A stretch of DNA of 64,000 bases, taken from Malacoraja senta. Its lineage: Eukaryota. Each line of letters opens with the position of its first letter. Positions within the stretch are counted from its first letter, which is position 1. The stretch spans positions 15,378,001-15,442,000 of the forward strand of contig CM075989.1 in assembly GCA_038087875.1 (NCBI GenBank), in the 5' to 3' direction. The position numbers were made by a program, and so were the translations under genes. This document shows, piece after piece, positions 5,645 to 60,300 of the stretch. Under the pieces are notes generated by a model, which saw nothing but the letters and a program-made list of their open reading frames with translations, did no database searches and had not been told where the DNA came from.

Positions 5645-8600
5645 AAGATTCAAGAGTTTATTGTCATGCGTCCCAGATAGGACAATTAAATTCTTGCTTT
5701 GCTTCAGCACAACAGAATATAGTAGGCATGAATACAGAACAGATCAATGTGTCCATATATCATTATATAAATATATACACACCTGAATAAACAGATAAAG
5801 TGCAAATAAACAGATAATGGTCTATTAATGTTCAGAGTTTTGTTTGAGTTGAGTTTAATAGCCTGATGGCTGTGGGGAAGTAGCTATTTCTGAACCTGGA
5901 CGTTGCAGTCTTCAGGCTCCTCCTGTACCTTCTACCTGAAGGTAGCGGGGAGATGAGTGTGTGGCCAGGATGGTGTGGGTCCTTGATGATGCTGCCAGCC
6001 TTTTTGAGGCAGCGACTGCGATAGATCCCCTCGATGGTAGGGAGGTCAGAGCCGATGATGGACTGGGCAGTGTTTACTACTTTTTGTAGTCTTTTCCGCT
6101 CCTGGGCGCTCAAGTTGCCGAACCAAGCCACGATGCCACCGGTCAGCATGCTCTCTACTGTGCACCTGTAGAAGTTAGAGAGAGTCCTCCTTGACATACC
6201 GACTCTCCGTAATCTTCTCAGGAAGTAGAGGCGCTGATGTGCTTTCTTTATAATTGCATCAGTGTTCTCAGACCAGGAGAGATCTTCAGAGATGTCCACG
6301 CCCAGGAATTTGAAGCTCTTGACCCTTTCCACCATCGACCCGTTGATATAAATGGGACTGTGGGTCCCCATCCTACCCCTTCCAAAGTCCACAATCAGTT
6401 CCTTGGTTTTGCTGGTGTTGAGGGCCAGGTTATTGTGCTGGCACCATTTGGTCAGTCGGTCGATCTCTCTTCTATACTCAGACTCGTCCCCATCAGTGAT
6501 ACGTCCCACAACAGTGGTGTCGTCAGCGAACTTGATGATGGAGTTCGCACTATGACCGGCTACGCAGTCATGAGTATAGAGTGAGTACAGCAGGGGCTGA
6601 GCACGCAGCCTTGAGCTGCTCCCGTGCTGATTGTTATCGAGGCTGACACATTTCCAACAATACGATCAGTCTGTGGTCAGTGAATGAGGAAGTCGAGGAT
6701 CCAATTGCAGAGGGATGCGCAGAGACCCAGTTCTGCGAGTTTTGTAACCAGCTTGGAGGGGATGATTGTATAAAATGCTGAGCTGTAATCAATGAATAAC
6801 AGCCTGACATATGAGTTTTGTTGTCCAGGTGGTCCAGAGTGGAGTGGAGAGCCAGTGAGATCGCATCCACCGTTGATCTGTTGTGGCGGTAGGCGAACTG
6901 CAGTGGGTTCATGTTTTTGTCGAGGTAGTTGTTTTGCACCATGATCAACCTCTCAAAGCACTTCATCACCACCGACGTTAGTGCCACTGGTCGATAGTCA
7001 TTGAGGCACGTCACCTTATTCTTCTTGGGCACCGGTATAATTGATGCCCTTTAAAAGCAGGTGGGAACCTCAGAAGTGAGAAGTTGAAAATGTCCGTAAA
7101 AACTCCAGCCAGTTGGTCCGCACAGGTTTTTAGAACACGACCGGGTATACCATCAGGTCCAGGCGCTTTTCGAGGGTTCATCCCTCTGAAGGATTTTCTG
7201 ACGTCGGCCTCTGTGACTGACTGAAATACCATCACAGCGAATGGGGGCTCGAGAAGGCACATCAGTGTTCTCCCTATCAAAGCGTGCGTAAAACGCAATG
7301 AGCTCGTCAGGGGGTGATGTTTTGCCGATATTCGAGCTACCTCCTGATTTCGCCTTGTAGGAGGTGATTGCATTCAGGCCCCGCCAAAGCTGCCGAACAT
7401 CTGTCTCTTCCTCCAGCTTGGAGCAGGTCCCTTTTGTCCTTTTTGATGGCCTTACCAAGGTTGTATCTGGACTTCTTGTAGACCACTGTATCATCAGACA
7501 TGAATGCCCGGTGTCTGGTCTTCAGAAGAGTGTGGATCTCAGTGTTCATCCAAGGCTTCTGTTTGGGAAACGCTCGGAAGGTATTTGTAGGGATGCAGTC
7601 CTCCACACATTTCTTTATGAAGTCTGTAACGACTGTGGCATATTCATTCAGGTCCGTTGCCGAGTCCCTGAACATTGCCCAGTCTGCAGACTGCAAACAG
7701 TCCTGGAGTTGTTCCTCTGCCTCCCCTGAACAGCTCTGCACAGTCCTCACCTCTGGGGGTGCGCTCTTCAATTGCTGCTTGTAGGCAGGAAGAAGCATGG
7801 TTGGTATGGTCGGATTTACCGAAGTGAGGGCGAGGGATAGAGCGATAAGCATGCTTGATGGTGGTGTAGCAGTGGTCGAGGGTGTTTGGTCCTCTGGTGC
7901 AGCAGGAGACATGTTGGTGGAAGTTAGGGAGCGATTTCGTACGGTTTGCTTTATTGAAGTCCCCAGCTATGGTGGCAAACGCCTCGGGGTAAGATGTCTG
8001 GTGTTTGTTGACCATGGCGTGCAGCTCCTCCAGTGCCAGACGGACGTCTGCCTGGGATGGGATGTAGACCGCGGTCAGAATGATGGAGGTGAATTCCCTC
8101 GGAAGGTAGAAGGGGGCGACACTTCACCGCCAGATGTTCGAGGTGTGGAGCACCACGCAGAGTTGACCATGAGGCAGACGCCCCCTCCTATCCCTTTCCC
8201 AGATGCCTGCGTACGGTCCATATGGTGGATGGAGAACCCTTTAGGCTGGACCGCTGAGTCTGGGGAGCTGGGGGTAAGCCATGTCTCTGTGAAACAGAAC
8301 ACAGAAGGATAAAAGGGAGAGGGGGCCGAAGTCCTCTCCGCTTCAGTCTGACCTGTAGCCCTGCCCGACGGCCACGTTTCCGTACTCCATGGAGCCCTCC
8401 TCGGTGTTTGAACGTAGAGTACTTACGGGTCTCCGCGTGATCGGGGAATCCCCTGAGATCGGGAATTCCCATACAGTCTGCACCTCCAGCTCCGTTGCTG
8501 CTGGGGGATCCTGGCCGACGGCCTCGATTCTGGACTCTGTGAAGGCCTCCCCGGTGTTTGCAGGTAAGGTTCTTACTGTACCTGCGCGCCTCCGCGAGGT

Positions 8601-8818
8601 TGGGGATTCCCTTCTGATCGGGGATTCCCTTACCAGCGCTAACATTGCGAGTTCTCAGTTGCGCTAATGCATTTAAATGCATTAGCAGCTCGCTACTTAC
8701 AGCGTTGATTTCAGTGGTTTTTCTGATGCAGGTGAATTCATAAATGCTGTATCTTACTGTTTTTCTTTGTGCCGTTCGCAAAATATCGCCGCAGGCAGGC
8801 GCCATCTCAGGCACTTGA
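5645..8818 (-). mobile_element. Near full-length, frameshifted Rex1/Babar-type non-LTR retrotransposon (APE endonuclease plus RT)
   Basis: ORF fragments with [49 protein letters not shown] and KFLG; 5' GAGATGGCGCC; (CTTGAAT)-type 3' tail. Confidence 0.92.
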
Positions 8819-9143
8819 TCCAGGATCACCATATCTCCTTATATATTAAGACATTTATCAACAGATTGTGGTGGCTTCTAGAAATGTTATCATAGGAAAT
8901 TCTGCATCTCATAACATAATGAAGCGGTCTCTTTAAACATCCTTTAGTTTTAATAATGCACATTTCTAATAATGAGACAAAAACAATAGAAAACACTTAA
9001 AAGTTTGCAAATGGATTAATATTGATTTTGCAACTGAGAAGAACAAAGATAAATTAAATCTAATCATTAAAAGGATCACATGTAAACAGAACTACACACT
9101 ACAATACAGGAAGTGTAAACCAATTATTTTTTTTGCATTTTAC

Positions 9144-9347
9144 CTTTTCCGCTGGCATGATTAAGGATTTGAGTTGCTTGAAGAGGTTTGACAGTGTTTT
9201 GCTGCCCCAGCTTCTGTCCACTTACAGACGCACTTGCTACAGATACATTTATTTGAGTAGGATTGTAACTGATATTTGGAATTGCTCTCCCAGTTCCAAC
9301 TGATTTTAATTGAGAAACCCCTGTTCTTCCTGACAGAGAAGCGACTC
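9144..9347 (-). CDS. ZNF280D: ZNF280-like coding exon 5 (204 nt, phase 1-1)
   Basis: CCATAG acceptor and AAG|GTAAAA donor; lies in ORF 9124..9360 (GVASLSGRTG...ILNHASGK); phase-compatible. Confidence 0.7.
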
Positions 9348-11089
9348 CTATGGATAACAAAAAAGGATCAAATCATCACAAATTATCAATTAACTACTCA
9401 AATCAAACTAAAGAGAGCTCCATTAATTTAATTTTGGTTGTTTGAATGTATAAAATTCAACTTTCACATCAGTGCCTATTAGACTTTCTCGTGAAATGCC
9501 ACTTTCCAAATCACTGTACAAAAATAACTGTTTCATTGAGCAAAAAAAGCAAAGTGCTGGAGGAACTCGGATTCGTTCCAGCATCCGTAGTCTCATGCGT
9601 CTCCAATAATTTTTAATCTGAGAACAATTTGCTTTGATGTAGAACAATCCTCATTTTGGTTTCAAAATATTTCCACTCCTTGTGACCTCACAGCTCAACA
9701 TGTCAGTTCTCACTTCAGTTCTCAACATGTCAACACTTCAGTTCTCAATGCTCTTCCATAATGGGAACTTGGAATAGACTATCCGGCTGCATTGGGAAAA
9801 TAAAAAATTGGCAAGGAAGTTGTGATACCTGGTCAAGAGCTTGGTGGGAGAAGAGTTTATGTTCCAGCTTGTGTTCCAGGTAAGTCACTAGACTCGTAAA
9901 TATTATAAAGGTTTTTTTTGTAAGAATTAAATATATCCAGCAAGCTGGCCAAGTGTGTCGATTGTGGCAAATTCAGCCAAAGATGTGAATGTAGAATGAT
10001 GCACTTCTGAACGAGGAACCTAAACCATGAATGCATAACTAAAGTGGCCATTAATTAAGCTAGACAATGGAAACAACTGAAACCTCACTGCACTGGATGT
10101 GAAGCTATACTCAGCCAAGCTGATTAAAAGCGGCAATGTTCAGATTTGTTAAATGGCAATGTTTGGACTAATAAGATTTGGTTTACAATGAGTGATCCAA
10201 ACTGAGTGATTGAGGCAAGATTCTTAAATCACTTAGACTGATGCAGTAAAGGACAGAATAAGTATTGCAGGGCTCGAAATTAGCGGTTGCCCGGGTGCCA
10301 TTGACCACAGAAAGTGCCTCCGGGCAACCTAAACGGCGACTCATTTTGCCCGGCTTGGCACCCAAATACTGGTTTATACCGGTAGACGCAAGAAACTGGA
10401 GTAACTCCGCGGGTCAGGCAGCATCTCCGGCGAATAGGAACTGACATTTCGGGTCGGCGACTGTATTCCTCTAGGATCTTTGATTGCGGGTCAAAGATAC
10501 TAGGTGTGTGGTGACGAAGGGTCGGGGCGAATGACGGGCCCCGAACAGCGGCTCCACCGCCTCCTCCTCCCGCACCCCGCCCGGCGGAAGAAGGCCTCCC
10601 TCTCCCTCCCCCCCCCCCTCCTCCCGGCCTCGGCGTGCGAGAGGGGGTGTCTTGAAAGCGCCTTTTGCAGATTTGCCATCAGCGGCTCCTATCGCCCTGA
10701 TAACGGTCGCTGCTTGCAACTCCACTAACGCTGCTTTCAAACCAACCCCTCTCGCACGCCGAGGCCGGGTGGAGGGAGGGAGGGAGAGAGAGGGACGTCT
10801 CCTTCCGCCGTCTGAAGCAGCTGCACGACAGATCCTATAGCTATAGGATCTTTGAGCTGCACCGCTCAGCCCCGCACCTTGCTGTCGGCTGGCGGAGGAG
10901 GGGAGGTGGTGGCGAGGAGGCGGCGGCACTTTGCCGTTGGACAGGGACGGACAAGGCAGCGGGGCGATGTTGTCCGAGGAGCACTGACCTTCCTTCTTCC
11001 CCACCTCCTCTGCCACTTCCCCCCCCCCTTTCTCTCTCTCTCTTGTACGCCCCCCTCCACCCCTCTTATCCTGGGACCCCCCCTCTCCA

Positions 11090-24030: not shown

Positions 24031-25344
24031 CTATTAACATAATATAACATCAACCAATTCTGAACAGAATTTGGAAATATTACTGCTATACCTCTTTAAA
24101 TTATATTTTATCATCCTTATGCACATTAACTGTCAGTTCCATAGTACGTATCAAGTGAGGAAACAATTATTGAAATACAAGAAAGTTACTTCACAACTAT
24201 ACAAAGACTCCAAATGTTAAAGAGAGTTACGGACCAAACAGGGTCATATCATGTTTTATGATCATCCCCGAAGTGGCTGCTTGTCATATCATGAAATTGT
24301 TTAAACTCAGAGACATGAGAAGCTGCAGATGCTGCAATCTTGAGTAAAACACAAGGTGTTGGAGGAACTCAGCAAGCCAGAATGGGAAGGAGACCCGAAC
24401 CAAAACATTATTTGCATTCACAGATTCTGCCTAACCCACTAACATCCTCTAGCACTTTGTGTTTTGTCTTTAAAGTTTGGTTTAAAAATCCAAATCATTG
24501 AGCCTCTATAAATAACTAGTTGAATAAAATGTCATTTGTCTAAATAACAGGAAGCAACTTATTTTAAAACAGTTATATCAAAGAAGAAAAAATTAATGAA
24601 AATTATGGGGGGGAAGAAGAATTTTATAATCTGAGAAATGGATGAAAATAGTCTGAAAATTTATACAAGGCAGCAAGTTAAAGCAACTCGCCCAAAAATG
24701 AAAAATAGGTTTAATATCATTTAAGCTGGCACAGGTATTCCTAAGTGGGCACACAGCCCACGTTCCTTTGAACTTATCTTCTCTGGATCCATAGGGAGGG
24801 TTTAGGCGAAAGTCAACACCACAGCAGCATTGCTGCAAAATTATATAAAGGGCTGATATGTGTTCACAATAACAAGCTCAAATTATTATATCCTTCTCGA
24901 AACACATGGCGAAAACCACCCTCAGCGCTTTCCAAAGTTTCTGTATTTCTCACGCATTCTGAAATATTTTGAAACTATTAACATTCAAATAAACAATACT
25001 TTTTAAAAATCAAAATGTTAACTGATTAAAAAAAAAAATTCATAGGTCTTCTGTATAGACGTACGACCCTATTCCTGTAGTTAGTTAGTTAAGCTTATTG
25101 TCACATGTACTGAGGTACGGTGAAAAGCTTTTGATTTAAAAAAAAAAATTCTGTATGTCTTCTGTATAGACATACAATCCTATTCCTGTGATCCATAATC
25201 CTGGAAAATGTAGGTCACTTCCCATGCCTCGAGGACAACCTCGCAGTGAAAAGCAGGCATCAGTGTTGAAACTCATTATTGTTTTTCTATGTGCTGCATA
25301 TTTTTTGATCAATTGAGAAAAAGGGAATCTCAAGATCTTGAAGC

Positions 25345-28214: not shown

Positions 28215-28965
28215 CAGAATCAGAATCAGATTTTATTCGCTAAGTATGTTTTGCAACATATGAGGAATTTCACTGGCCAGGTCAGTCAGACAATTAAAAG
28301 CAACAGACTCAAAAACACATTTTAACATGAACATCCACCACAGTGACTCCTACACATTCCTCACTGTGATGGAAGGCGAAATAAAGTTCAAGTCCTTCCC
28401 TTTTGTTCTTCCTCTGTCGTGGGCCTCGAGCCCTCCGTTGACGGGATGATCTTGACTCCCGTAGCCGGTGGCGTTGGGGCCCTCCGCGTTGAGGCGTTCA
28501 GCTCCCGCATCGGGGGGTTGTCAGCTCCCCGTGCCGGGCGATCGAATCTCGCGTCGGGGCTGGTCGAACCTTCTGCAGTGTTGGAGCTCCCGACTTGCCT
28601 CTCCCGAGACTGCGAGCCCTTGATGGTAAGTCCGCAGGCAAGGGATCCGCTCCGATGTTAAGTCCGTGCCCCGCGGTGGGGCTCACGACAGTCCGAGGTG
28701 GCTTCCAGCTCCAGCGATAGTAGGCCGCAGAGCTCGGGGAATGTGATCCGAAAAATGATCACATCTCCAGGAAGGTAAGAACCTGAAAAAAAGTTTCCCC
28801 CGATCTCCCCCCCCCCCCCACCACATAAAACAAACCGAAGTACATTAAATCAAACTTTTAAGAATAACACAAAAAAAAACAAAAAGATGAGAAAACGAAC
28901 AGACTGCCGGCAGGGCTGCCATCTCCCCTGGCGCCCCTGGTGGTCTATGCGCCCCTGGTGGTCTA
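28215..28965 (-). mobile_element. Non-autonomous LINE-derived retroposon A (central hairpin, (CTGATT)n tail)
   Basis: Shares head and central motifs with 55492-56318; simple-repeat tail at 28215-28230. Confidence 0.7.
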
Positions 28966-29636: not shown

Positions 29637-32576
29637 GTAGCGATATTACAAAACCTACCTTCAGCGGCGCTGCAGATCTGCCACGGGCTGTGTGCGCGAC
29701 TTTGGCGCCTTTGAGGGGGGGGGGGGGATTAAAATGCAGGTTTGTATCGCTTGTCAGAGTGGGATTTCCTCGGGCTGCTAGTCGATGAAGAAAAATTTGG
29801 TTTAATTTCCGTTCCCGGTTTTAAAAATAGATAAATAAATGAATAAAGAATAAAAGATAAATCGCTGGACAATTTAATAGTTGGATTAAAGTAAAAAGCG
29901 ACTTCTAACGCTCTCAACGCCTTCAACGTGACGGATCGTAATATCAGGACAAAACAAAGGGTAAGTCGTTTATTTCACACATTATCTTGCTTCTTGGGGT
30001 GGCTTTAGTCTAATTTTACGACGCGAAAATGTTATTTAGTCCCCAAACGATTAGGCCATGTCTTTGCCTGCCGATATGGGGTTAAAATTCACGGCAACGG
30101 CAACGTTCGAATCGATCGCATTTCAGAAACACCCACTTCGCAAGATGATTTAAATCCTCATTTTTTTTGGACAATCATGTCATAAGAGCATTTAAATCAT
30201 CTATATTTTGTGTAATTGTCTATCCACAATCAATATTTTTATACTAAATATTCACAACAGTTTTAGTCACATGTATTGTGCAAAAAATAATAATTTTGAT
30301 TATATTGAGAGTCGATGTTTCTAGATTAATTTATGGGAATTGAACATTAAATTCCTTCATGACAGTGAGATTTAAAAATCATGTTATATTGTGAATTCTT
30401 GTGTGAATGGGATTAGTTTGTTATTTGGATACTTAGGCTATTTTTAAAAATTGAGCCTTTTCTTAAGAAATAGATAGATGTTTAGATCTAGTAATTCAAT
30501 TTAGATGAATTTAATTGATTAGATGATTTTAATTGATTTGATGAAACTGATGAATATGATTTTTTTGTTGGGTATTGACTATTTGTTTTAGCGTTTAACT
30601 TTATCATTTCTACCTTTTTTCTAAAACTGCAAATAATAACTTGTTTCTGTTAATGCTGTTCAGTGTTTTTTTTCCCTTTACATTTTAAACAGGTGTCTCC
30701 GAAGAAGAAATGCAAATTTGTCAACCCAAATGCCCAGCAAAAGAGACTGATTTAGACAGCATTCACAGAGCTTATCCAAATTTGGACTACTCCAAATGTG
30801 ATGATCTACAGGACATTCTTAATGGGAAAGTAGTGGGCAGAAAGGCATGTCATGCGTAGTTTGGAGAGCAAAAACCTGTAGTTTACAATGCCAAAATTGA
30901 AAAGTTGAGGAAAAACAAGGTGTACAGAGTTGATTATTGGTTACAATCTGAGGAGTATGATGATGCTACTGATTATGATATGCCAATGTACCAGCTAGCA
31001 ACTGATCTTCTCCATAAAGACTTGGTCTATTGGTAGAAATTGTAATTTATTTACCTATCTGTTACGGACTTAATAATAATAATAATGAATTTTATTTATG
31101 GGCGCCTTATACCGAGGTCTCAAGGACACCTTACAGAGATTTATGGTTAACATATAATCAGAATAATCAGAATTTTCAAAAAAATAAGTTATAAAGACCA
31201 ATACACAAATCAGGGACAGAATTCCTTCCAAAAACACAAAAAAAGAAAATCAGAAGCACAATTTGAGGAGAGAGCAGCGGCTACGAAACCGCGCCAGCGT
31301 CCACTCTCCCCTCCGACTGCCATCTTGAACACAGACTAACAAATACAATTACAAACAATTACATACAAAAATCATCCCCCCACAGTGATTTCCACTGTGG
31401 GGGAAGGCACAATGTCCAGTCCCCAACCCCAGTTCACCCCAAAAAGTCAGGCCAAATGAAGCCCCCGCTATTGCCTCTACGGAGGCCCGATGATCCTGGC
31501 CGTTCTCGCCGGGTGATGTAGCCCCGGCGTCGGGAGAGTCCTCCAGCAGCTGGGCCACCTGGAACGGCCGCACCCCTCACCGGAGGCCGCAACTACGGCT
31601 GGAACGGCCGATTTCCCGCAGGCGTCCGCAGCACCCGACAGGGCCGCGCCGATTTGGAGCTCAAAGCTCCCGATGTTGGAGTCGGCGCCGCCGCCCGCGG
31701 CTGGCCGCTCCACAGTCCCGCAGCCCGGAGGTGTTGAGCTCGGCGGTCCAGCTCACCGGAGCTCCAGCGCGTCGGTCCAGCGCGGCGACCCAGGCAAGGC
31801 ATCGCCCGCTCCGCTGCACAATAGCGCTCCAGCGCCGTGCCGCCACCGAAGCTGAGGGTGCTGTGCGACCCCCGTCGGGAAACGCCGCTCCACGCCGCTC
31901 CACGCCCGCTGGTAGGCCGCGAGGACGGGTCGACTGGGCAGCCGGAGAGAAGGCTGCCTCACCGATGTGATTTCCCCTTGTTCCCCCCACATCGAAATGC
32001 AAAATGAAGAAAAACAGAGACTTAAATAAAAACTAAAAACTAGAAACAAAAGTACAATTAACGGACGGCTGCTGTTTGGCAGCCGTTCCTCAAGATGGCT
32101 CCTCCCAAGATGGACTTACAGCATATAATACAATAATATTAAAGTTCTGATCTTGGGAATATCACATTTTTGAATTTTTAAGGCAGTCTGGGTGTTTATT
32201 ACGGTCTTCACTTATTACGGTCAATTTTGTAATTAGCTACAATTAGGTAACTAACTAATTATATGCTTTAATTTCAGTTCATCCAAGTAAGATGTTTCAT
32301 ATTTGTTTCAGAATGCTTCAATCTATAATAACTGAAAATTTCATTCAGTTCTCTTAATTTTTAAGAAAGTTATGGGCTTTTGACTGTCCTCGATCACAGC
32401 TTTTGTGTTAAGTCAATGGAAAAGCAATAGGGAACAAGATGCTGATTTCCGAGTATGAAAATGGCCATAACTTTTTTAATACCGAAGATATGAAAGTGAA
32501 TTAGGTATCAAATTAAACTTCTGTTTATGCTTTATCTGATGGGGTAAATTGCAGACTTGATTTTTTAAATTGCTAC
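29637..32576 (+). mobile_element. Non-autonomous DNA transposon copy 2 (GTAG..CTAC termini, 5-bp TSD TAATT), superfamily unresolved
   Basis: TAATT at 29632-29636 and 32577-32581; ~17-bp TIR GTAGCGATATTACAAAA; internal donor at 29961 and terminal exon remnant 30693-31036; interrupted by a retroposon at 31073-32111. Confidence 0.8.
31073..32111 (-). mobile_element. Non-autonomous retroposon C (central hairpin, L2-like (ATT)n tail) with 7-bp TSD
   Basis: GGACTTA duplicated at 31066-31072 and 32112-32118; the empty site GTTACGGACTTACAGC is present in copy 1 of the host element at ~1012-1027. Confidence 0.82.
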
Positions 32577-37690: not shown

Positions 37691-38756
37691 TTATTACTCT
37701 CCTTCTGCTTCCTCTTCTGTCTCCACTTATCTGCCAGCCTCTGTCTCTATCTACACTCTCCTCCCAATCTACCCGTTTTTAACCCTTCTTCTACCTCTCA
37801 CCCACCAGCCACCATCCCCCAACATTACCCATCAAGACTCTTCAGTCTGAAGAAGGGTCTCGACCCAAAACGTCACCCCATTCCTTCTCTCCAGAGATGC
37901 TGCTTGTCCCACGGAGTTACTCCAGCATTTAGTGTCTATCTCCCCATATCCTCATGGTGATTTAAGGAATGATCTGAACAGAATATTTAGACTTAAAACA
38001 TAAAGTTTCCTATCATGTATTCTACATTTTCGATGACATCATATTCTACTCATCAAATTAGTTTGTAACAATAATTTATTTATTTTTGCTAATACATATG
38101 TTATAGACCTCATTCTGATTATCCCCACACAATTTCTCATATTTATATGTTACCTTGAAATGTCACTGTTTTCTTAAGTAATAAGCATTTGTGCATGTCT
38201 GAAAGGCCTTTTGAAATGTAACTACACTATATTGTCATTGTAAATTTCACATAGTCTCTTGTGCCAAGCATGGATGCAGAGTGCAATTCAAATTGAGTAC
38301 AACTTTATCCATTGCTCCCACATTTGGTTACAATGTAAATTCAATGCAGGGCGCTAATTTGATCAAAAAGTTAGAGTGCGTTCAGTAGTAAGTTGATTGA
38401 TAGGTATCATAGCATTATTCTTGTGGTATAGTTTTTATTCTTTTCTCAACAAAATAGAGGAATGGCAAGGCTCCTCAATCCTATTTAATGCACCTCTGCT
38501 TATGGGCAATGCCGGATGCTATTCACATCCTGGACAACTGCAGATGCACAAAATGATATCAACAGGAAGAGCTTAAAGATTTTAGTCCTTGAAAAGCATC
38601 ACTTACCAGATCCATGTCTGATCGTTAGCAGGATTATATGGTTCAGGAGAAATCAACACACAGCTGAAGTGGCAAAATGTAAAGAAGAAATGAGTGCCCA
38701 CTAGGCAGACATAGAAAACCAGCAGGTGCAGTCTCCCAAGTGTATCACATTTGCTA

Positions 38757-39115
38757 GTAAGTAAGTAAGTACATTTTATTTATATAGCACGTTTAAATCA
38801 ACTCGCGTTGAAACCAAAGTGCTTTACATAGAAAAAAAAAATTAAGTTTCCGTACATCCATAGAAAAATTAAAAAAAAAGAATAATGACACAACACATTA
38901 TAGAATTCAACATGAACGTCCCCCCCACAACAGAATCAAAACTTTCCACTGTGGGGAGAGGCATCAGAAAGTTTCAGTCCTCTTCCTCTGTGATCACCCG
39001 AGGTCGGGGCCTACTTGTGGCCTCCGCAGTCAGTCCGATGTTTTCAGGCCCTCTTGCCGGGAAGATAGAACTCCGGCGTCGGATGGACACTCCTCAGTGG
39101 CTTGGAAATGTCTGC
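38757..39115 (-). mobile_element. 5'-truncated retroposon D (hairpin remnant, L2-like (TTAC)n tail)
   Basis: Tail AAAGCACTTTGG...GTGCTATATAAATAAAATG(TTAC)n; CCCCACA/TGTGGGG stem at 38923-38956. Confidence 0.6.
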
Positions 39116-45010: not shown

Positions 45011-46665
45011 TAGATCTCCACTGTAGGATCTTTGGTCACCATGGCCTTATCCATTCATAGCCCTCTTTACCCGGCCTAAATGGCGACAACGCAACAGAAA
45101 CAAATCCAACAGAAGATAGACACAAAAAGTTGGAGCAGCATCTCTGGAGAAAAGGAATAATAGGTGATGTTGTTTCGGGTCGAGACCATTCTTCAAACTG
45201 AGAGTGAAGAAATCGACTATTTTTACACCACAATGTTTGTACTTACGTTTGAGCCTTGAAATAGTTGACTGGTACTTTATTAGTGACAAGTACCTGGAAA
45301 TAGTGAATTTCTTTGTTTTGCCTAAAATCCAGTAAAACGATATTATTTGTCCAAAATAAACTGCAGATACTGAAGATAGACATAAAATGCTGGGGTAACT
45401 CAGCGGGTCAGGCAGCATCTCTGGAGAAAAGGTGACGTTTTGGGATGAGACCCTTTTTTATTTCACTGGATTGCAGGCAAAACAAAGAATTTCGCTGTTT
45501 CAAGTTACGTGTGACTAATAAAGTACTATTTAACTATTTCAAGTAGTATGAGTGAGTCTCATCGTCTAGAGTGATATTAATACAAACCAGAATAACTTCC
45601 TCACAGCTTAAGGTAAAATGAATTAATTTTACTGAGAACTGCAGTGGCTGGCTTAAAATCGAAGGTAGACACAAAATGCTGGAGTAACTCAACGGGTCCG
45701 GCAGCATCTCTGGAGATAAGGATTGGGTGACGTTTCGGTGAAGACCCTTATTACTTTTACTGAGTTTTCAGTTATGAAGACCTGAGGGTCTGCTTGACTC
45801 GATAAGGCTCTGGTGTCTTAATTCGCCTCAGTCTTTCCATTCTTTTCCTCAGTTTTTGCCTTTAGGCTTTTGTTGCTGTCAAGTCCCGATCTATACTAAA
45901 GGAACCCCTTCCTCAACAAGATGTATTTTGGGATTAGTAATGAAGCATGCCTCTGCACTCTTGGTGAACACTTTTTAAAAAATCTTCCAGGCTTGTTATG
46001 ATTTGGCCATTTTTTGCTTTGTCTTCATTTATGTCAGACTTGTTTCTTCCAGTCCATCTATGGTTTAAAAACTTGTTACAATGAGAAAGAACCAGGAGAG
46101 AACAAGTATTTTCAATATTATGAATTAATCATTAATTACGTTAAGCATACCATCAAGTTCTCCTGGGGGGGGGGGGAGGAAGCATTACACACCTGGATTT
46201 TCTAGTGTCAGTTTGCTATAAAGTTTTGATGGCATTTGATGTCTAATTTTCTTAATGACTATCATTGTTTTACAATTTAAGATTATTGCTGTGTCCTGAA
46301 AGAGATGATTTTTTTTCCATTATACTGGCAATACAAAAATTGGAAATATAGACTAAACTCTCTATGAGCCATAAATAATTCAACATTTTTAAGATACGAC
46401 ATCTTATAACATGGCCCCATAGCAGAAGCGTCCTCGTCGCGGGGCTGGAAACTGGAAGTATCCTGAACTAATTCTGCTACCACCTTGCGACAAGTGATGG
46501 CTTCCACTGATTGTCGCCGGAAGCTTGCGTCCTTTTCAGGACGGATGATGACAGCGAGGTCAACATTTGTAACAAGATGGACACGAAAAGAAGAAGATAA
46601 CATTATGACTATTCATCCGATAACGTCTAAAATCTGTCTCATTGCATTGGATTGTGTGTTTTATT

Positions 46666-54520: not shown

Positions 54521-55491
54521 TTCCATTTTGTGCAGTCAATCTCATCTTTAAGCCACCAGAAATTAGACAATTATCATTCTAGTCTCAAATGTTGCCTTGG
54601 CTCCAGCCTGAGGCACAAGGTTTTTCATTTCCTTTACTGAGCTGTCTTATGCCTATGAGAGTAAAATTGTTATTTCAATGCAAAATCATGCCGATTTCTA
54701 AGTTTTGCGTTACTGGTGCATGGCTGTTAGAAATGAGAGAAGATAAAGCTGCTTGCATTAATTCCACATACAATGTTTATATACAACAGACGAATTTAAA
54801 GAATATTCCCAAGTGCATGACTAACCTTTCAAACTATTTAAATGGAAAGTTAACCATCTCTTGGAGACCTATAGTCGCTGTAGTATGCATTAGGGGAAAG
54901 GGGTCTAAGGCACACCAGCACAATTAATCAACGACGGTTTCATGTCAGGATCAGGCTACACTTGCATGTTTAGCTGTTATTATGCATGCAAAACAAAACT
55001 CCACAAGCTTATGATGCCATAAAGAGTTTTACACAGCCATCCAGTTACATGGCACTCCTGCATATATTTCTAGCCATATGCACATCTGAGAAACTATACT
55101 CTGGAGGCCAATGTCTCAATAAAAAAGGAATAATTTCCTGGAATATTGTTGTAAATTAAACCATGGGAGCAAGCGAAGGGGCCAGAGATACAAACGGATA
55201 ATTTTTAAAATGGTAAGAGTGATCAAGACTTCTGGGTATAAGTGGGATGAATTAAGAAATAATTCAATGCAGAAATGAAGAAATATTAAATCATTCTAAA
55301 ATGCTAAATTATGATGAACAGGACATCCTTGCTAATGTGTATAGTTACACAGAAAGGGTATTAACTGCTGCACAGCTTAGCAAGCAGTAAGATTGTTCCT
55401 CTAGACAAAACCTTTTGCTTATCTTTCGTCATTTGCATCGTACAAAATAGCAGTACGGGTTTCCCTAACTGAGGAACACCTTAATCGATAT

Positions 55492-56318
55492 GGTTCAATG
55501 GTCCTTTATTGTCATGTGTACTGAGGTACAGTGAAATTTGATTTACTGTACAGTCATACCAAAGAAGTAACAAGATACAAAACGACATAAAGATTAAACA
55601 TAAACAGCCACCACTGTGGCGTCTGAGAATCCCTTGGGCACACAGCATAAGCGGAGACCAACAGCCATCAGTTCAATGTCCTGGCCACACACACGCTCCT
55701 TCACCATGATGTGACCAGAGTTCTACTGTCCGCTGTCACTCTCTCTGCAGTCCCTGTCCGCCCGAACAGTCAGAAAGCCGTCCACATTCGCACCAGACTC
55801 CAGGATATTCTCATGGCGCGATATCCATGCAAACATCGAGATCACTGCACTCACGGCAATCCCTCCGAGCCCTCACCAGTGCAGGCAGCACTCCATCTTT
55901 TTCATCACATTCCCCACTGATGGAAGGCAAATAACTTTTACCACCTTTCTTCCTTTTCTCCCGTGGTCGGGGCGATCGAAGCTCCCACAGTCAGCGATCT
56001 AAGCCCCCGCATCGGGGCCATCGAGGCTCCCACGATCGGGGCGGTCGAAGCTCCTGCGTTTGGAGCTCCCGCAGTCGATCCCTAACAAAGGGACCCCCAG
56101 CTCCACGATGTTAGGCCGCAGTGTGGATGGAGATACGATACGTAAAAAGTCGCATCTCCGTCGAGGGAAGAGATAAAAAAAGTTTCCCCACACCCCCCAC
56201 ATAACACAAAAACTAAAGGTACACTAAAACATAAAAATAATACAGAATAAAAACAACAAAAGATGAAGCGGACGAGACAGGCTGTTGGCGAGGCTGCCAC
56301 TTATGGTGCCACCCGGTG
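55492..56318 (-). mobile_element. Retroposon B, retaining an APE endonuclease fragment (55598-55930)
   Basis: Head as in element A; translates as ...ALVRARRDCRECS...VDGFLTVRADRDCRES...GHIMVKERVCGQDIELMAVGLR..VPKGFSDATVVAVY. Confidence 0.78.
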
Positions 56319-57162
56319 TTTTTGAAAACAATTCCATGCATTCATGCCAACGATAACAATATGTAATATTAACTAGTAACAAAGCCATTATAGGCTGCGG
56401 TTTCAGTCCATGCAGAGCCGGCTGATCTCAATCAGACTGGAAATGGGTCCCTCAACTAGCCCGGTGTCCTGTGTTTAATGGGGAGGGGGACAAATATATC
56501 TGCTCCATCGGAACCCCAGTTGACAAGTGCTTTAGCATAGGCACGTGGTGGGAATGGGTTCCTTAGTGTGGGCCTGCCTACACGTTACTGTCTAAACACA
56601 AATATGAAGAATGTTCATTGGCATATTCAGGTAACTGCAAATATGACATATAATTCTGCAATAATCATTGGCTTCGAAAGAAAAAGTGAGAAACTTGACT
56701 CAAAATACATTTATTTTGCAAAGATTGTATTATCATCATTTGTTTCCATTTTCTGGCAGTTCCTCGTGGCTGTGGCTCTGCAGCATTTCTGCATGTGTGA
56801 ATGAGTGGCTTGCATATCTGTGGGTAGTTTTATAGCTCTCTGATGGCATTGCATTCAGCTGCAACTTAGATTAAATGCCATGAGTGGCCAACCTGGAATT
56901 TGAAACTAACATTGTTATTGGACACATCCACTTTCCCAAACATTGGTGAGTTGGCTAACATTGTCATGGACAGAGGTTACAAATAATAAGGCATACATAT
57001 TCATCAGGAGCTCATACTTCCCCTCCTGGATTGGGTTCAAATGTCCCACGATAACCTCACCACAGACACAATGAGTCTGATTTTCCACCAATATCTGCAT
57101 TGACCAGTGGGCAGATTTGCCCATATCTCGGCAATGCCCAAGCAGCAGCTATAACATGTTCT

Positions 57163-57369
57163 TCACTTAGACGAGCACACTTGCAGGACACCCGTGCTGT
57201 GCTGGTGAATGTCAGCTGGAGTCCACCAAGTGACCTGTGTCAGTTTTGACAATGAGTCTTCAATCTGAAATAATAATTCCTGTTTTTCTTTCCATAGATA
57301 GATGCTGTCCTGGTGAGTTTCTGATTTAAAAAAATCTTCATTTGATTTCAACAAGGCAGCCAGCTTCTC
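57163..57369 (-). CDS. Candidate terminal coding exon of an unidentified upstream gene
   Basis: Pyrimidine-rich acceptor CTCTCTCCTTATCTATCTGTCAG, then 68 open codons (EKLAALLKSNEDFFKSETHQDSIYLWKEKQELLFQIEDSLSKLTQVTWW...) ending in TGA; non-repetitive; no homologue recognised. Confidence 0.3.
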   Translation of the reverse strand, partial: EKLAALLKSNEDFFKSETHQDSIYLWKEKQELLFQIEDSLSKLTQVTWWTPADIHQHSTGVLQVCSSK

Positions 57370-60300
57370 CTGACAGATAGATAAGGAGAGAGGAACAAAA
57401 GGGCTGATGGAACAAGGGAGGAGGAGAGGTGTGTGGAGGTCAGTGTCAGACTCTGCCTGTCCCAGCATGGGCAGAGTCGCTGCCAGCAGGTCATAGAGAG
57501 TGGGAGAAGTCTATGCCACAGGAAAGGCAAGCAAAGCTTTCTCTTTGATTTCATTGGGTTTATTAATTGTTTTTATGTGTGAGTTGATAATCGTCCTGGA
57601 TTTTTGCATAATTTTTATGTTTTATAGCTCCTGAATGGTTTGAGTGTTTGAGTATGAAAGATTCAATGTGAAGAGCCATCTTAACAACTGGGAGTGTACT
57701 GGCTGTCAAAGCCTGTTTGTCAGCACCACACACCCCTGGCACTGGGAGACGGATCCTATGCTGGTGTGCGTGGCAACTGGTTTTCCAATGAGTTAAGCTT
57801 CTAGTGGCGGGGGATTCCCGGGACCACATTGCAAGAAAAGTGACCATCAGGGTGCGAGGCAGCTGAGGTCATGCTCCACTGGCACTTCCATATCCAGGGG
57901 TTTATCTTCTGGCTTCAACCTGCCCATCACTTGTCTCAATCGCAAACAGTTCTGCAGATACTCAGATCCAGAAATAACGGAAAGAAAATACCGGAAGTTC
58001 TGAGCGAATCAGGCAGCACCAGTGGAGATAGAGTTTACATGTCCGATTGGACCCTTGATAGAATGCTTAGAGATATGCTGGCAACCCTCCATGTTAAGGC
58101 ATTTGGGATATGGCTATTTGCCCTTATGGAATCCATGACTCTGCCCAAAAAAATTGAGATACAAAATACATATACTGCTCTTATGGAACTTATGTAGGGA
58201 GGAAATAAATAAACACAAATTACAAAAGAAACAAATTTTGTCAATTTTTATTAAAATTACATTTCTTGATACATACACAGAAAATATGGTTTTTTTAACG
58301 CATTGCATTTATTTTGCTGTCTTACTTTTCTCTGGCATGCATTTAAAAGTGTACTTCTCCATTCAAACAGAAGGATGGAAGGTAATGAGTGAAGACCCAG
58401 CAGTCTTACACTGTCCTTCACGCTCTCCTCCTCCTACCTGGTTCCATCTGCCCTTTTCTTCCTCTCTCCTTATCTGTCTCTATCTATCACAATGAATGGC
58501 GGTGCAGGCTCGAAGGGCCGAATGGCCTACTCCTGCACCTATTTTCTATGTCTATGTTCTATGTCTATCACTTTCTAGCCTTTAGTCTGTTCTTTTGCTC
58601 CAGTTTGCGACAACTGCAGTTGCTTTTGTTTCCAAATGCAGCCATTGGTTAGTAAGAGAGTTTCTTTGGAAACTGACAAAGCAATTTCTTAAGTGAGGAG
58701 AGATGATCCACTTCGACCTGATGCTGAGCTTCATTGAAAGTTCCAATCTCGACCTAGGTCCCCATCCTGCCCTGGTCCCTAGTGATATAAGGTTGTCCTT
58801 GATTCCTCGCAACTAAGGAATATTCTGCCAATCTAGTCTTAGTTGTAGATAATATTTTCATGCGCCTCCTAGTTCGGTTCTTCAGCCAGCAGGATCAAGG
58901 AAATGCAGCAATGATGATTCCAACAACCTCAATATTCGGCTGAGCGAAATACTCAGTCTAGGTGCAAATGATTTTATCTAGTGATGCATGGGTCTGGTTA
59001 GTTTACTGCTCAGGTTCAGATTGTAGAACTTGCTGTAGTAACTGAAGGCTTCTCGAAGCTATAACCAGTTTCTCCATCAAGTAATCTGGGCAAAGAGAAT
59101 TAACCAAATCCACAAGTTTCTATTTGGCCTCTATGAATCTCTGGGGATTAGATAATGAAGCAATTGATAAGAGCTGACAAATTGTGTAGGAAGGAACTGC
59201 AGTTGCTGCGTTACACCAAAGATAGCTGCAAAAAGTTGGAGTAATTCAGTGGGTCAGGCAGCATCTCTGGAGAAAATGAGTAGGCGACATTTTGGGTCAA
59301 GACCCTTCAGACCCGTTTTGGGTCAAGACCCTTCAGCAGCCTTCTTTTTGCAGGGAGTTTGCCCTGCTGAACATGGTATCAGTGATCTTTTTTTATCTGT
59401 GGTCGGCATATTATCTGAAGATAACAGAAGCGAAAATGGGGTTTGCTTTAATGATCATCATAATCCTAAATTAAGTTATGATGTTGAATAGTGTCATACG
59501 GCACAAAAACAGGCCCTTTGGTGCACTATGCCCAGGCTGTCCATCAAGCACCCATTCACGCTAATCCGTTTTACTTGATCTTAGTGCATGGCCCACCATG
59601 CCTTAGCAATTCAAGTATTCCTTCTGCAGTAAATTGGTTTTAAAAATTCCCATTTCTAGGGATTTACGTATTTGTCTAGAAGCTTCTTAAATGCATCAGC
59701 CACCTTTCCAGGAAAGTGAGTCACAAGATTTATTTTTAAACATCCAAAACAATTATTTTTTTAAAATTGGTGATGCAATTTGTATAATAGCATGGACCCA
59801 GGATTGATGCCTTGTCCAGCACAATGTAGTTTGTATTTGTAATGCGTCACCAGTTGATTGAGCCCAGGTCAACACTGTTCCGTCTGGTGTTGGGCAGGTG
59901 AGCTGCAGATGCCAATTATATAACAACCACACCTGCCTCGCACAGCTCAGCAGAAATGCAACACTGAAATTGTTATCTGATCAGTTTAAGTCCATACTCA
60001 GTTTTATTTTCTAATTTCCCAATTTTGCATGGAAAATAAAGCAGAACCAAGGATTGCATTATCTGTTCTCCTCTTGTTATTGCTGGAATTAAATGCATTG
60101 GGAAGTTAATTACTGAAAGCACAAAAATGTAGTTTAAATATATAACGGAATTCTGCTTGTTTCAATTGCAGTCATAGAAATTAGATCATCTGCAGAGCGC
60201 TGAATCTCACAGTCACTGTGTTTCTGTACAAATCACTATGCACAATGTTTTACAGTCTATCTTGCCATTTCAAATGAAATCTTTATCTGGCATGTTAAAA

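What the first reader, a model, noticed from the sequence alone, without database searches (positions are those of the whole stretch)
55598..55930. Missing-link copy: the conserved hairpin of a non-autonomous retroposon family is built from two ends of a deleted LINE endonuclease gene
Seen: on the minus strand, element B reads CCTTCCATCAGTGGGGAATGTG, then ~290 nt of endonuclease-like sequence, then GCCACAGTGGTGGCTGTTTATG. The latter part is in one frame (one stop) and ends ...DIELMAVGLR..VPKGFSDATVVAVY, paralleling LPREFTSIILTAVYI in this window's own Rex-Babar element (~8060-8105). Element A (28335-28372) has the same two flanks nearly joined: CCTTCCATCACAGTGAGGAATGTG-taggag-TCACTGTGGTGGATGTTCATG. 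Established: Rex1/Babar APE domains begin with an LPSIxxxNV motif and contain a REF....VYxPP strand. Inference: the family arose by deleting the endonuclease core, which brought the PSITVGNV and TVVAVY codons together, and these were then selected to base-pair. In B the second arm (CACAGTGG) does not pair, consistent with a state before the hairpin existed.
Basis: partly seen in the sequence, partly recalled or inferred. Interest (0 to 1): 0.72.

Follow-up and report, generated by a model that had tools for sequence, protein, structure and literature searches.

The report
LINE-derived retroposon with gene-born hairpin
A family of non-coding jumping elements carries an RNA hairpin whose two arms are leftovers of a LINE endonuclease gene, and the arms seem to have paired already while the gene fragment still lay between them, so the flagged copy is a decayed member of a common family rather than a pre-hairpin missing link.

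Summary
The sequences are as described. B (55490-56324, minus) is a non-autonomous Rex1/Babar LINE derivative: LINE 5' end, endonuclease (APE) N-terminal fragment, then a LINE 3' tail. Both hairpin arms are collinear APE codons (LPSxxxGNV and SHAxVVAVY), so the EN piece is no secondary insertion. Two further EN-less hairpin copies lie in the window: C (5-nt loop) and D (8-nt loop); A has a 14-nt loop. The four copies have four different tails. Two claims fail. B is not a lone link: contigs of four organisms cover all of it, EN part included, far above single-copy depth. B's non-pairing arm is private decay: 97-99% of depth reads the pairing base at 55615, and 91-97% restores two bases missing in the left arm, giving 12 of 12 pairs across about 300 nt. 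Best reading: latent codon complementarity became a long-range stem, then the loop was deleted and the stem kept. Autonomous fish relatives pair at 6-10 of 12; one of 12 loci forms the same stem. Function is untested. New variant of bipartite non-autonomous LINEs.

The parts
55490..56324 (-). Element B: EN-retaining non-autonomous Rex1/Babar derivative (about 835 nt)
   Evidence: Depth rises from single-copy flanks (23-26 in run X1) to thousands within these limits in 4 of 4 runs; contigs join flank to element in X2, X3, X6
55956..56324 (-). B 5' part: LINE-like 5' end, T-rich stretch, GC-rich 22-24 nt repeats; weak match to the N-terminal extension of the Rex ORF
   Evidence: Similar to the 5' parts of A and C and, by eye, to the 5' ends of L001 and L002; repeats
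55914..55923 (-). B left arm (S-I-T-V-G codons of the LPSxxxGNV motif); this copy lacks 2 nt
   Evidence: 2-nt insertion behind 55917 in 91-97% of depth in 4 of 4 runs; motif in 100 of 173 proteins
55620..55913 (-). Retained APE endonuclease fragment, broken; lacks 12 codons around the GGGLA motif
   Evidence: short spacer in 2 of 86 sequences (B and P0003), 22-24 residues in the other 84
55608..55619 (-). B right arm (A-T-V-V-A codons); base 55615 is a private change
   Evidence: Pairing base at 55615 in 96.7-99.1% of depth in 4 of 4 runs
55490..55596 (-). B 3' tail, Rex-type: short stem-loop, AATAAA, short repeat
   Evidence: Terminal 40 nt at about 1.6 million depth in X1, shared with a far larger family; similar ends at 5657-5673 and 25094-25110
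28215..28945 (-). Element A: EN-less copy with Rex-type tail (TCTGAT repeats)
28334..28373 (-). A hairpin, 13 bp, 14-nt loop
   Evidence: -20.5 kcal/mol, z -2.56
31073..32111 (-). Element C: EN-less copy, with a second 5'-like module and an L2-like tail (label recalled); 7-bp target duplication
   Evidence: GGACTTA on both sides and once in the empty host repeat
31375..31405 (-). C hairpin, 13 bp, 5-nt loop
   Evidence: -24.9 kcal/mol, z -4.60, 0 of 200 shuffles
38753..39095 (-). Element D: 5'-truncated EN-less copy with another L2-like tail (label recalled); 5' limit approximate
   Evidence: Found through a tail pattern, not through the arms
38920..38959 (-). D hairpin, 15-16 bp with G-U pairs, 8-nt loop
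   Evidence: z -1.82 and -2.70 for two windows
5650..8820 (-).

Best explanation
Stem first, loop loss later. (1, shown) A Rex1/Babar LINE lost most of its ORF from just after the VVAVY strand to the 3' UTR; this bipartite element amplified using LINE proteins in trans (B type). (2, shown) The two beta-strand motifs are partly complementary by codon make-up alone, because Ile/Val/Met codons pair in a shifted frame. (3, shown for the family majority; cause inferred) In the B family the two motifs pair at 12 of 12 positions across about 300 nt, with Thr codons on both sides that turn G-U into G-C pairs. (4, inferred) The intervening EN sequence was dispensable and was deleted, leaving 14-, 8- and 5-nt loops in A, D and C. 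(5, inferred) The stem is kept by selection on the element's RNA, most likely because it helps the transcript be copied in trans (folding or stability upstream of the tail, or binding of the LINE protein). The 5' body plus hairpin then travelled with different LINE tails.
For: Majority letters in 4 of 4 runs restore both arms; depth at 55623 and 55635, inside the EN part, is similar to that at 55615, so these contigs are EN-type. The two 12-mers form a -20.3 kcal/mol duplex; A -22.4, C -26.5, the B copy -14.6 in another register. With the family's residues, 12 pairs with at least 11 Watson-Crick arise in 0.16% of synonymous draws. Thr is at the right-arm position in 0 of 141 and at the left-arm position in 3 of 100 proteins. 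Read by hand: all 48 cells (12 pairs x B majority, A, C, D) pair; 10 differ from the B majority, none breaks, 3 are two-sided (two kinds, one shared by C and D). D was found by its tail. One X1 contig skips 55620-55759, starting at the inner edge of the right arm. A, C and D share an upstream GGACT..AC motif where B keeps LINE-like K-S-Y-L codons.
Against: No tree. No autonomous parent from the same host group was found, so step 3 may predate the non-autonomous stage. One search showed only 40 of 317 substitution rows, 12 of 71 indel rows and 15 of 283 joints; no joint from arm to arm was among those shown. Contigs over the left arm could partly be EN-less types. Two X3 contigs skip the left arm (55798-56019; 55890-55954), so copies without the stem exist. 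Only three EN-less copies were seen, two found through the arms. The B copy's own fold does not contain the long-range stem. No functional data.
Confidence: 0.58

Rival explanations
1. The stem is a cis element of the autonomous LINE itself: the parent Rex1 already paired these two coding strands, and the non-autonomous families only kept it.
For: In L006, an autonomous-type teleost copy, the homologous site is the best partner among 2982 windows (-15.0 kcal/mol) and pairs with probability 0.86-1.0 at 10 of 12 positions, in the same register. Watson-Crick pairs over 9 loci exceed the synonymous null (44 vs 37.9, P=0.015). B's big deletion starts about 12 nt past the right arm.
Against: Only 1 of 12 distinct loci forms the stem. 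L006 alone has P=0.028 for its Watson-Crick count, not significant over 9 tests; total pairing is 70 vs 65.3, P=0.07. B's fragment is closer to another subgroup (43.5% to P0107) than to L006 (37.6%). The right-arm Thr is absent from 141 proteins.
Confidence: 0.2
2. One reading: the core was deleted first, the hairpin was perfected in the short form, and B type arose later by recombination between a hairpin element and an autonomous LINE.
For: Tail and module swapping is evidently common in this family (four tails in four copies). It would explain perfect arms without a 300-nt-range stem.
Against: It needs two exact crossovers at the arms. B keeps LINE-like codons outside both arms (K-S-Y-L upstream, A-V-Y-V downstream) and the G of G-N-V, where A, C and D are derived. 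It still makes B no pre-hairpin link.
Confidence: 0.1
3. Neutral: a chance inverted repeat promoted deletions between its arms during reverse transcription or replication, and the hairpin has no function.
For: Latent complementarity comes free from codon phase, with 3-nt periodic peaks in the slide test. Copies lacking an arm exist. The sample is small.
Against: Two kinds of two-sided change and no broken pair in three divergent EN-less copies with different tails and loops. Deletions driven by a stem usually remove the arms as well (general knowledge, recalled).
Confidence: 0.12

Closest known systems
Bipartite ORF-less non-autonomous LINEs (RIME/Ingi, NARTc, Bov-A, RTE-N, Vingi and R2 derivatives; PMC5786205)
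   Same: LINE 5' end joined to a LINE 3' tail by internal deletion; no small-RNA head; high copy number.
   Different: The parent is Rex1/Babar, whereas that paper (2018) lists only RTE, Ingi, Vingi and R2. The retained part reaches into coding sequence, and a second deletion between two coding strands leaves a hairpin.
Rex1/Babar LINEs (single ORF with APE and RT; PMC6274825, PMC13343379)
   Same: APE N-terminal motifs, 5' end layout and Rex-type tail in A and B.
   Different: No RT, broken EN, 0.3-1.0 kb; C and D end in other, L2-like tails (label recalled).
SINEs with conserved bodies and exchanged tails (CORE, V, Deu, Meta, Ceph; PMC5786205)
   Same: A conserved internal module carried with changing LINE tails.
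   Different: No tRNA, 5S or 7SL head was found. The conserved module is traceable to endonuclease codons, not to a 5' UTR (as for Ceph/RTE) or an unknown source.
ORF1-retaining non-autonomous LINEs (HeT-A, HAL1, Ag-Sponge; PMC5786205)
   Same: Non-autonomous LINE keeping part of the coding region.
   Different: The retained piece here is broken and cannot encode a protein; Rex1 has no ORF1 (PMC13343379).

Membership tests
Bipartite non-autonomous LINE | 5' part derived from the LINE 5' end | tested here: met
   EN N-terminus by protein and DNA alignment; extreme 5' end resembles L001 and L002 by eye only
Bipartite non-autonomous LINE | 3' end shared with a LINE | tested here: met
   B's last 40 nt are shared with a much larger family and resemble the end of the window's Rex LINE at 5657-5673
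Bipartite non-autonomous LINE | Amplified as the deleted unit | tested here: met
   High depth across the 12-codon deletion (55723, 55729) and the EN-to-tail junction (55584); contigs span the junction in X3 and X6; P0003 shares the deletion
Bipartite non-autonomous LINE | Target-site duplication | tested here: inconclusive
   7 bp for C; none recognised by eye for A, B or D
Bipartite non-autonomous LINE | Autonomous partner in the same genome | not testable with these tools
   No genome held; only teleost relatives fetched
Rex1/Babar autonomous LINE | Intact APE plus RT ORF | tested here: not met
   B has a stop, frameshifts, a 12-codon deletion and no RT
Rex1/Babar autonomous LINE | Clade placement by RT phylogeny | not tested
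   B has no RT; the Rex1/Babar label rests on motifs (recalled) and on APE+RT fish proteins with automatic names
SINE (Pol III) | tRNA-, 5S- or 7SL-derived head | tested here: not met
   No Rfam hit in A-D; the one ARAGORN call (31544-31626) lies in the middle of C's GC-rich body, not at a 5' end
SINE superfamilies with conserved body | Match to CORE, V, Deu, Meta or Ceph domains | not testable with these tools
   No Repbase or Dfam library available

The most novel reading that the evidence does not exclude
Rex1 LINEs can hide a functional long-range RNA stem inside their endonuclease coding sequence (seen in L006 in the same register). Non-autonomous offspring distilled it into a hairpin that boosts retrotransposition and now serves as a portable, SINE-body-like module carried by tails of at least two LINE clades: a conserved retroposon body born from protein-coding codons, with all stages still present in one genome.
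Probability: 0.25. Interest if true: 0.72.

Novelty: new variant of a known kind. Interest (0 to 1): 0.48.

Why it matters
The origin of conserved internal bodies of non-autonomous retroposons is mostly unknown; the traced cases come from LINE 5' UTRs (PMC5786205). Here a conserved hairpin is traceable to two coding strands of the LINE endonuclease, with long-loop and short-loop stages coexisting. It adds Rex1 to the clades that make bipartite elements and gives a short, testable candidate cis element for trans-mobilisation. It matters mainly to transposon specialists, and the families may already sit unannotated or under other names in repeat libraries that could not be searched.

Tried and rejected
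No genome was held. No further family copies came from pattern scans of viral, prokaryote genome or metagenome contigs, or from blastn against plasmids and phages. Word-index protein searches with B and with P0003 found no other relative. Locus searches found nothing; 45 and 47 did not run because the alignment was too loose. No RNA holder was listed among the runs. Four look-ups in earlier findings returned nothing. Rejected: secondary insertion of the EN piece (homology runs through both arms in register; motif spacing is 110-111 residues in 77 of 88 proteins). Rejected: chance match of A's flanks to B. Rejected: my own early note that P0003 shares B's frameshift; that stretch is in frame and only divergent. 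The MAFFT alignments of A with B and of A, C, D misplace the arms and were not used for pair counts. Summed contig depth was not treated as a copy number. Eight paper searches listed no paper whose title or abstract start describes this family; that library lacks most subscription papers, Repbase Reports and Dfam.

Full report
Observation. Both quoted strings are present on the minus strand. B has 294 nt between its arms. A has a 13-bp hairpin with a 14-nt loop. B's stretch 55597-55824 is one frame with one stop. Searched against 1.84 billion representatives it gave 60 hits at E<=0.001; of 12 hits scanned, 2 passed Pfam's cut-off for Exo_endo_phos and 4 for RVT_1, and four named ones are fish proteins. 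In tblastn, 165 of 177 stored proteins (B's own two translations included) hit B. At DNA level B aligns with locus L004 continuously from upstream of the left arm to the V-Y-V codons after the right arm. The arms sit on the LPSxxxGNV and PREFSHxxxxxVY motifs, which lie 110-111 residues apart in 77 of 88 proteins with both. The EN piece is therefore native. The comparison with the window's own Rex element holds at motif level only. The Rex1/Babar label rests on recalled motifs and these relatives. [quoted passage not shown]

B is a family member. I laid contigs of four runs from four organisms on 55300-56500 at 80% likeness (4 of 24 runs listed). 8,243-10,823 contigs were laid per run. In X1 the flanks have depth 23-26, the EN bins 18,802-230,078. 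The tool states that this is not a copy number, but the step at both ends of 55490-56324 is clear in all four runs. The 12-codon deletion in the EN and the junction from EN to tail are both covered at high depth, contigs span that junction in X3 and X6, and protein P0003 has the same deletion (2 of 86 sequences). So the broken, deleted form itself amplified. Flank-to-element contigs in X2, X3 and X6 show the same insertion in those organisms.

B's unpaired arm is decay. At 55615, 96.7-99.1% of depth in the four runs reads the base that pairs. Behind 55917, 91-97% carries two bases that B lacks. Depth at neighbouring EN positions (55623, 55635) is similar to that at 55615, so the right-arm reading comes from EN-retaining copies; for the left arm a share may come from EN-less types. 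The restored arms pair at 12 of 12 positions (11 Watson-Crick, one G-U; -20.3 kcal/mol). Only 40 of 317 substitution rows were shown, so smaller differences in the arms may be hidden.

More copies. C (31073-32111) has a 13-bp hairpin with a 5-nt loop and a 7-bp target duplication. D (about 38753-39095) was found through a tail pattern and has a 15-16-bp hairpin with an 8-nt loop. A profile of the three hairpins found no further copy in the window. Counted by hand, all 48 cells over B majority, A, C and D pair; 10 differ from the B majority, none breaks, and 3 are two-sided. A and B end in Rex-type tails, C and D in two different L2-like tails (label recalled). No small-RNA head was found. A's linker TAGGAG resembles the P-R-E codons just before the right arm in the B majority; this is a suggestion only.

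Where the pairing comes from. In 9 autonomous-type teleost loci with both motifs (of 22 fetched) the arms pair at 6-10 of 12 positions: 70 of 108 against a synonymous null of 65.3 +/- 2.8 (P=0.07), and 44 Watson-Crick against 37.9 (P=0.015). The signal is 3-nt periodic, so it comes largely from Ile/Val/Met codons. Only L006 forms the stem (best of 2982 windows; pair probability 0.86-1.0 at 10 of 12 positions); three more loci did not, so 1 of 12. The B majority has Thr codons on both arms, seen in 3 of 100 and 0 of 141 proteins; both changes turn G-U into G-C. Its degree of pairing occurs in 0.16% of synonymous draws.

Mechanism. Most likely a bipartite Rex1 derivative kept the 5' end through the VVAVY strand, latent complementarity was perfected as a long-range stem, the loop was then lost in steps, and the stem was retained because it benefits copying of the RNA in trans. 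One X1 contig skips 55620-55759 from the inner edge of the right arm, which fits stepwise loss; two X3 contigs skip the left arm, which shows that copies without it exist; no arm-to-arm joint was among the 15 of 283 shown. B is closer to the LINE than A, C and D on both sides of the arms, so the EN-retaining family is a fair intermediate stage, but not a pre-pairing one. The order of events and the function are inferred; rivals are listed separately.

Literature. PMC5786205 (parts 1-4 of 5 read: main text and part of the references; supplements not opened, and they may list relevant elements) says ORF-less bipartite LINEs were reported only for RTE, Ingi, Vingi and R2, and traces SINE bodies to 5' UTRs. 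PMC6274825, PMC13343379 and bioRxiv 10.64898/2026.10.27.761883 were seen as passages only and did not mention such elements there. Eight searches listed no description of this family; Repbase and Dfam could not be checked.

Verdict. The feature is real and the coding origin of the hairpin is well supported. The 'missing link before pairing' reading is not. New variant of a known kind; interest 0.48.

Noticed in passing
window 46401-46478 (+); element about 46413-46596: Rfam CPEB3 ribozyme hit above the gathering score (39.6 vs 35 bits, full model) in a genome that does not look mammalian. It begins a 184-nt element that ends in AAG repeats and is flanked by ATAACAT on both sides (46406-46412, 46597-46603). 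It looks like a short retroposon, perhaps RTE-type (recalled), with a 5' HDV-like ribozyme. Activity and copy number not tested.
   Followed up: partly
L006 339-705: A teleost Rex-type copy forms a predicted long-range stem between the same two endonuclease strands in the same register; no further DNA of its subgroup was found.
   Followed up: partly
window 31073-31330 (-): C carries a second 5'-like module (AAGATGGC start, T-rich stretch) and an L2-like tail inside the same target duplication: a composite that inserted as one unit into a repeat whose other copy at about 754-1452 is empty.
   Followed up: partly
window 31544-31626 (-): ARAGORN tRNA-Arg call inside C's GC-rich body; probably spurious.
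   Followed up: no
window 25094-25140 (-): Solo Rex-type 3' tail like B's, with a short flanking duplication.
   Followed up: no
L001, L002, L023-L028 (handle G001): A bacterial MAG holds six contigs with fish-type Rex LINE sequence, three or four of them with open frames of about 1000 aa: host contamination.
   Followed up: no
window 55803-55840: A 36-nt skip inside the EN fragment at depth about 4,000 in X1 suggests a B subfamily with a further deletion.
   Followed up: no
window 57163-57510 (-): Open frame of 115 codons that looks like a host exon; gene not identified.
   Followed up: no
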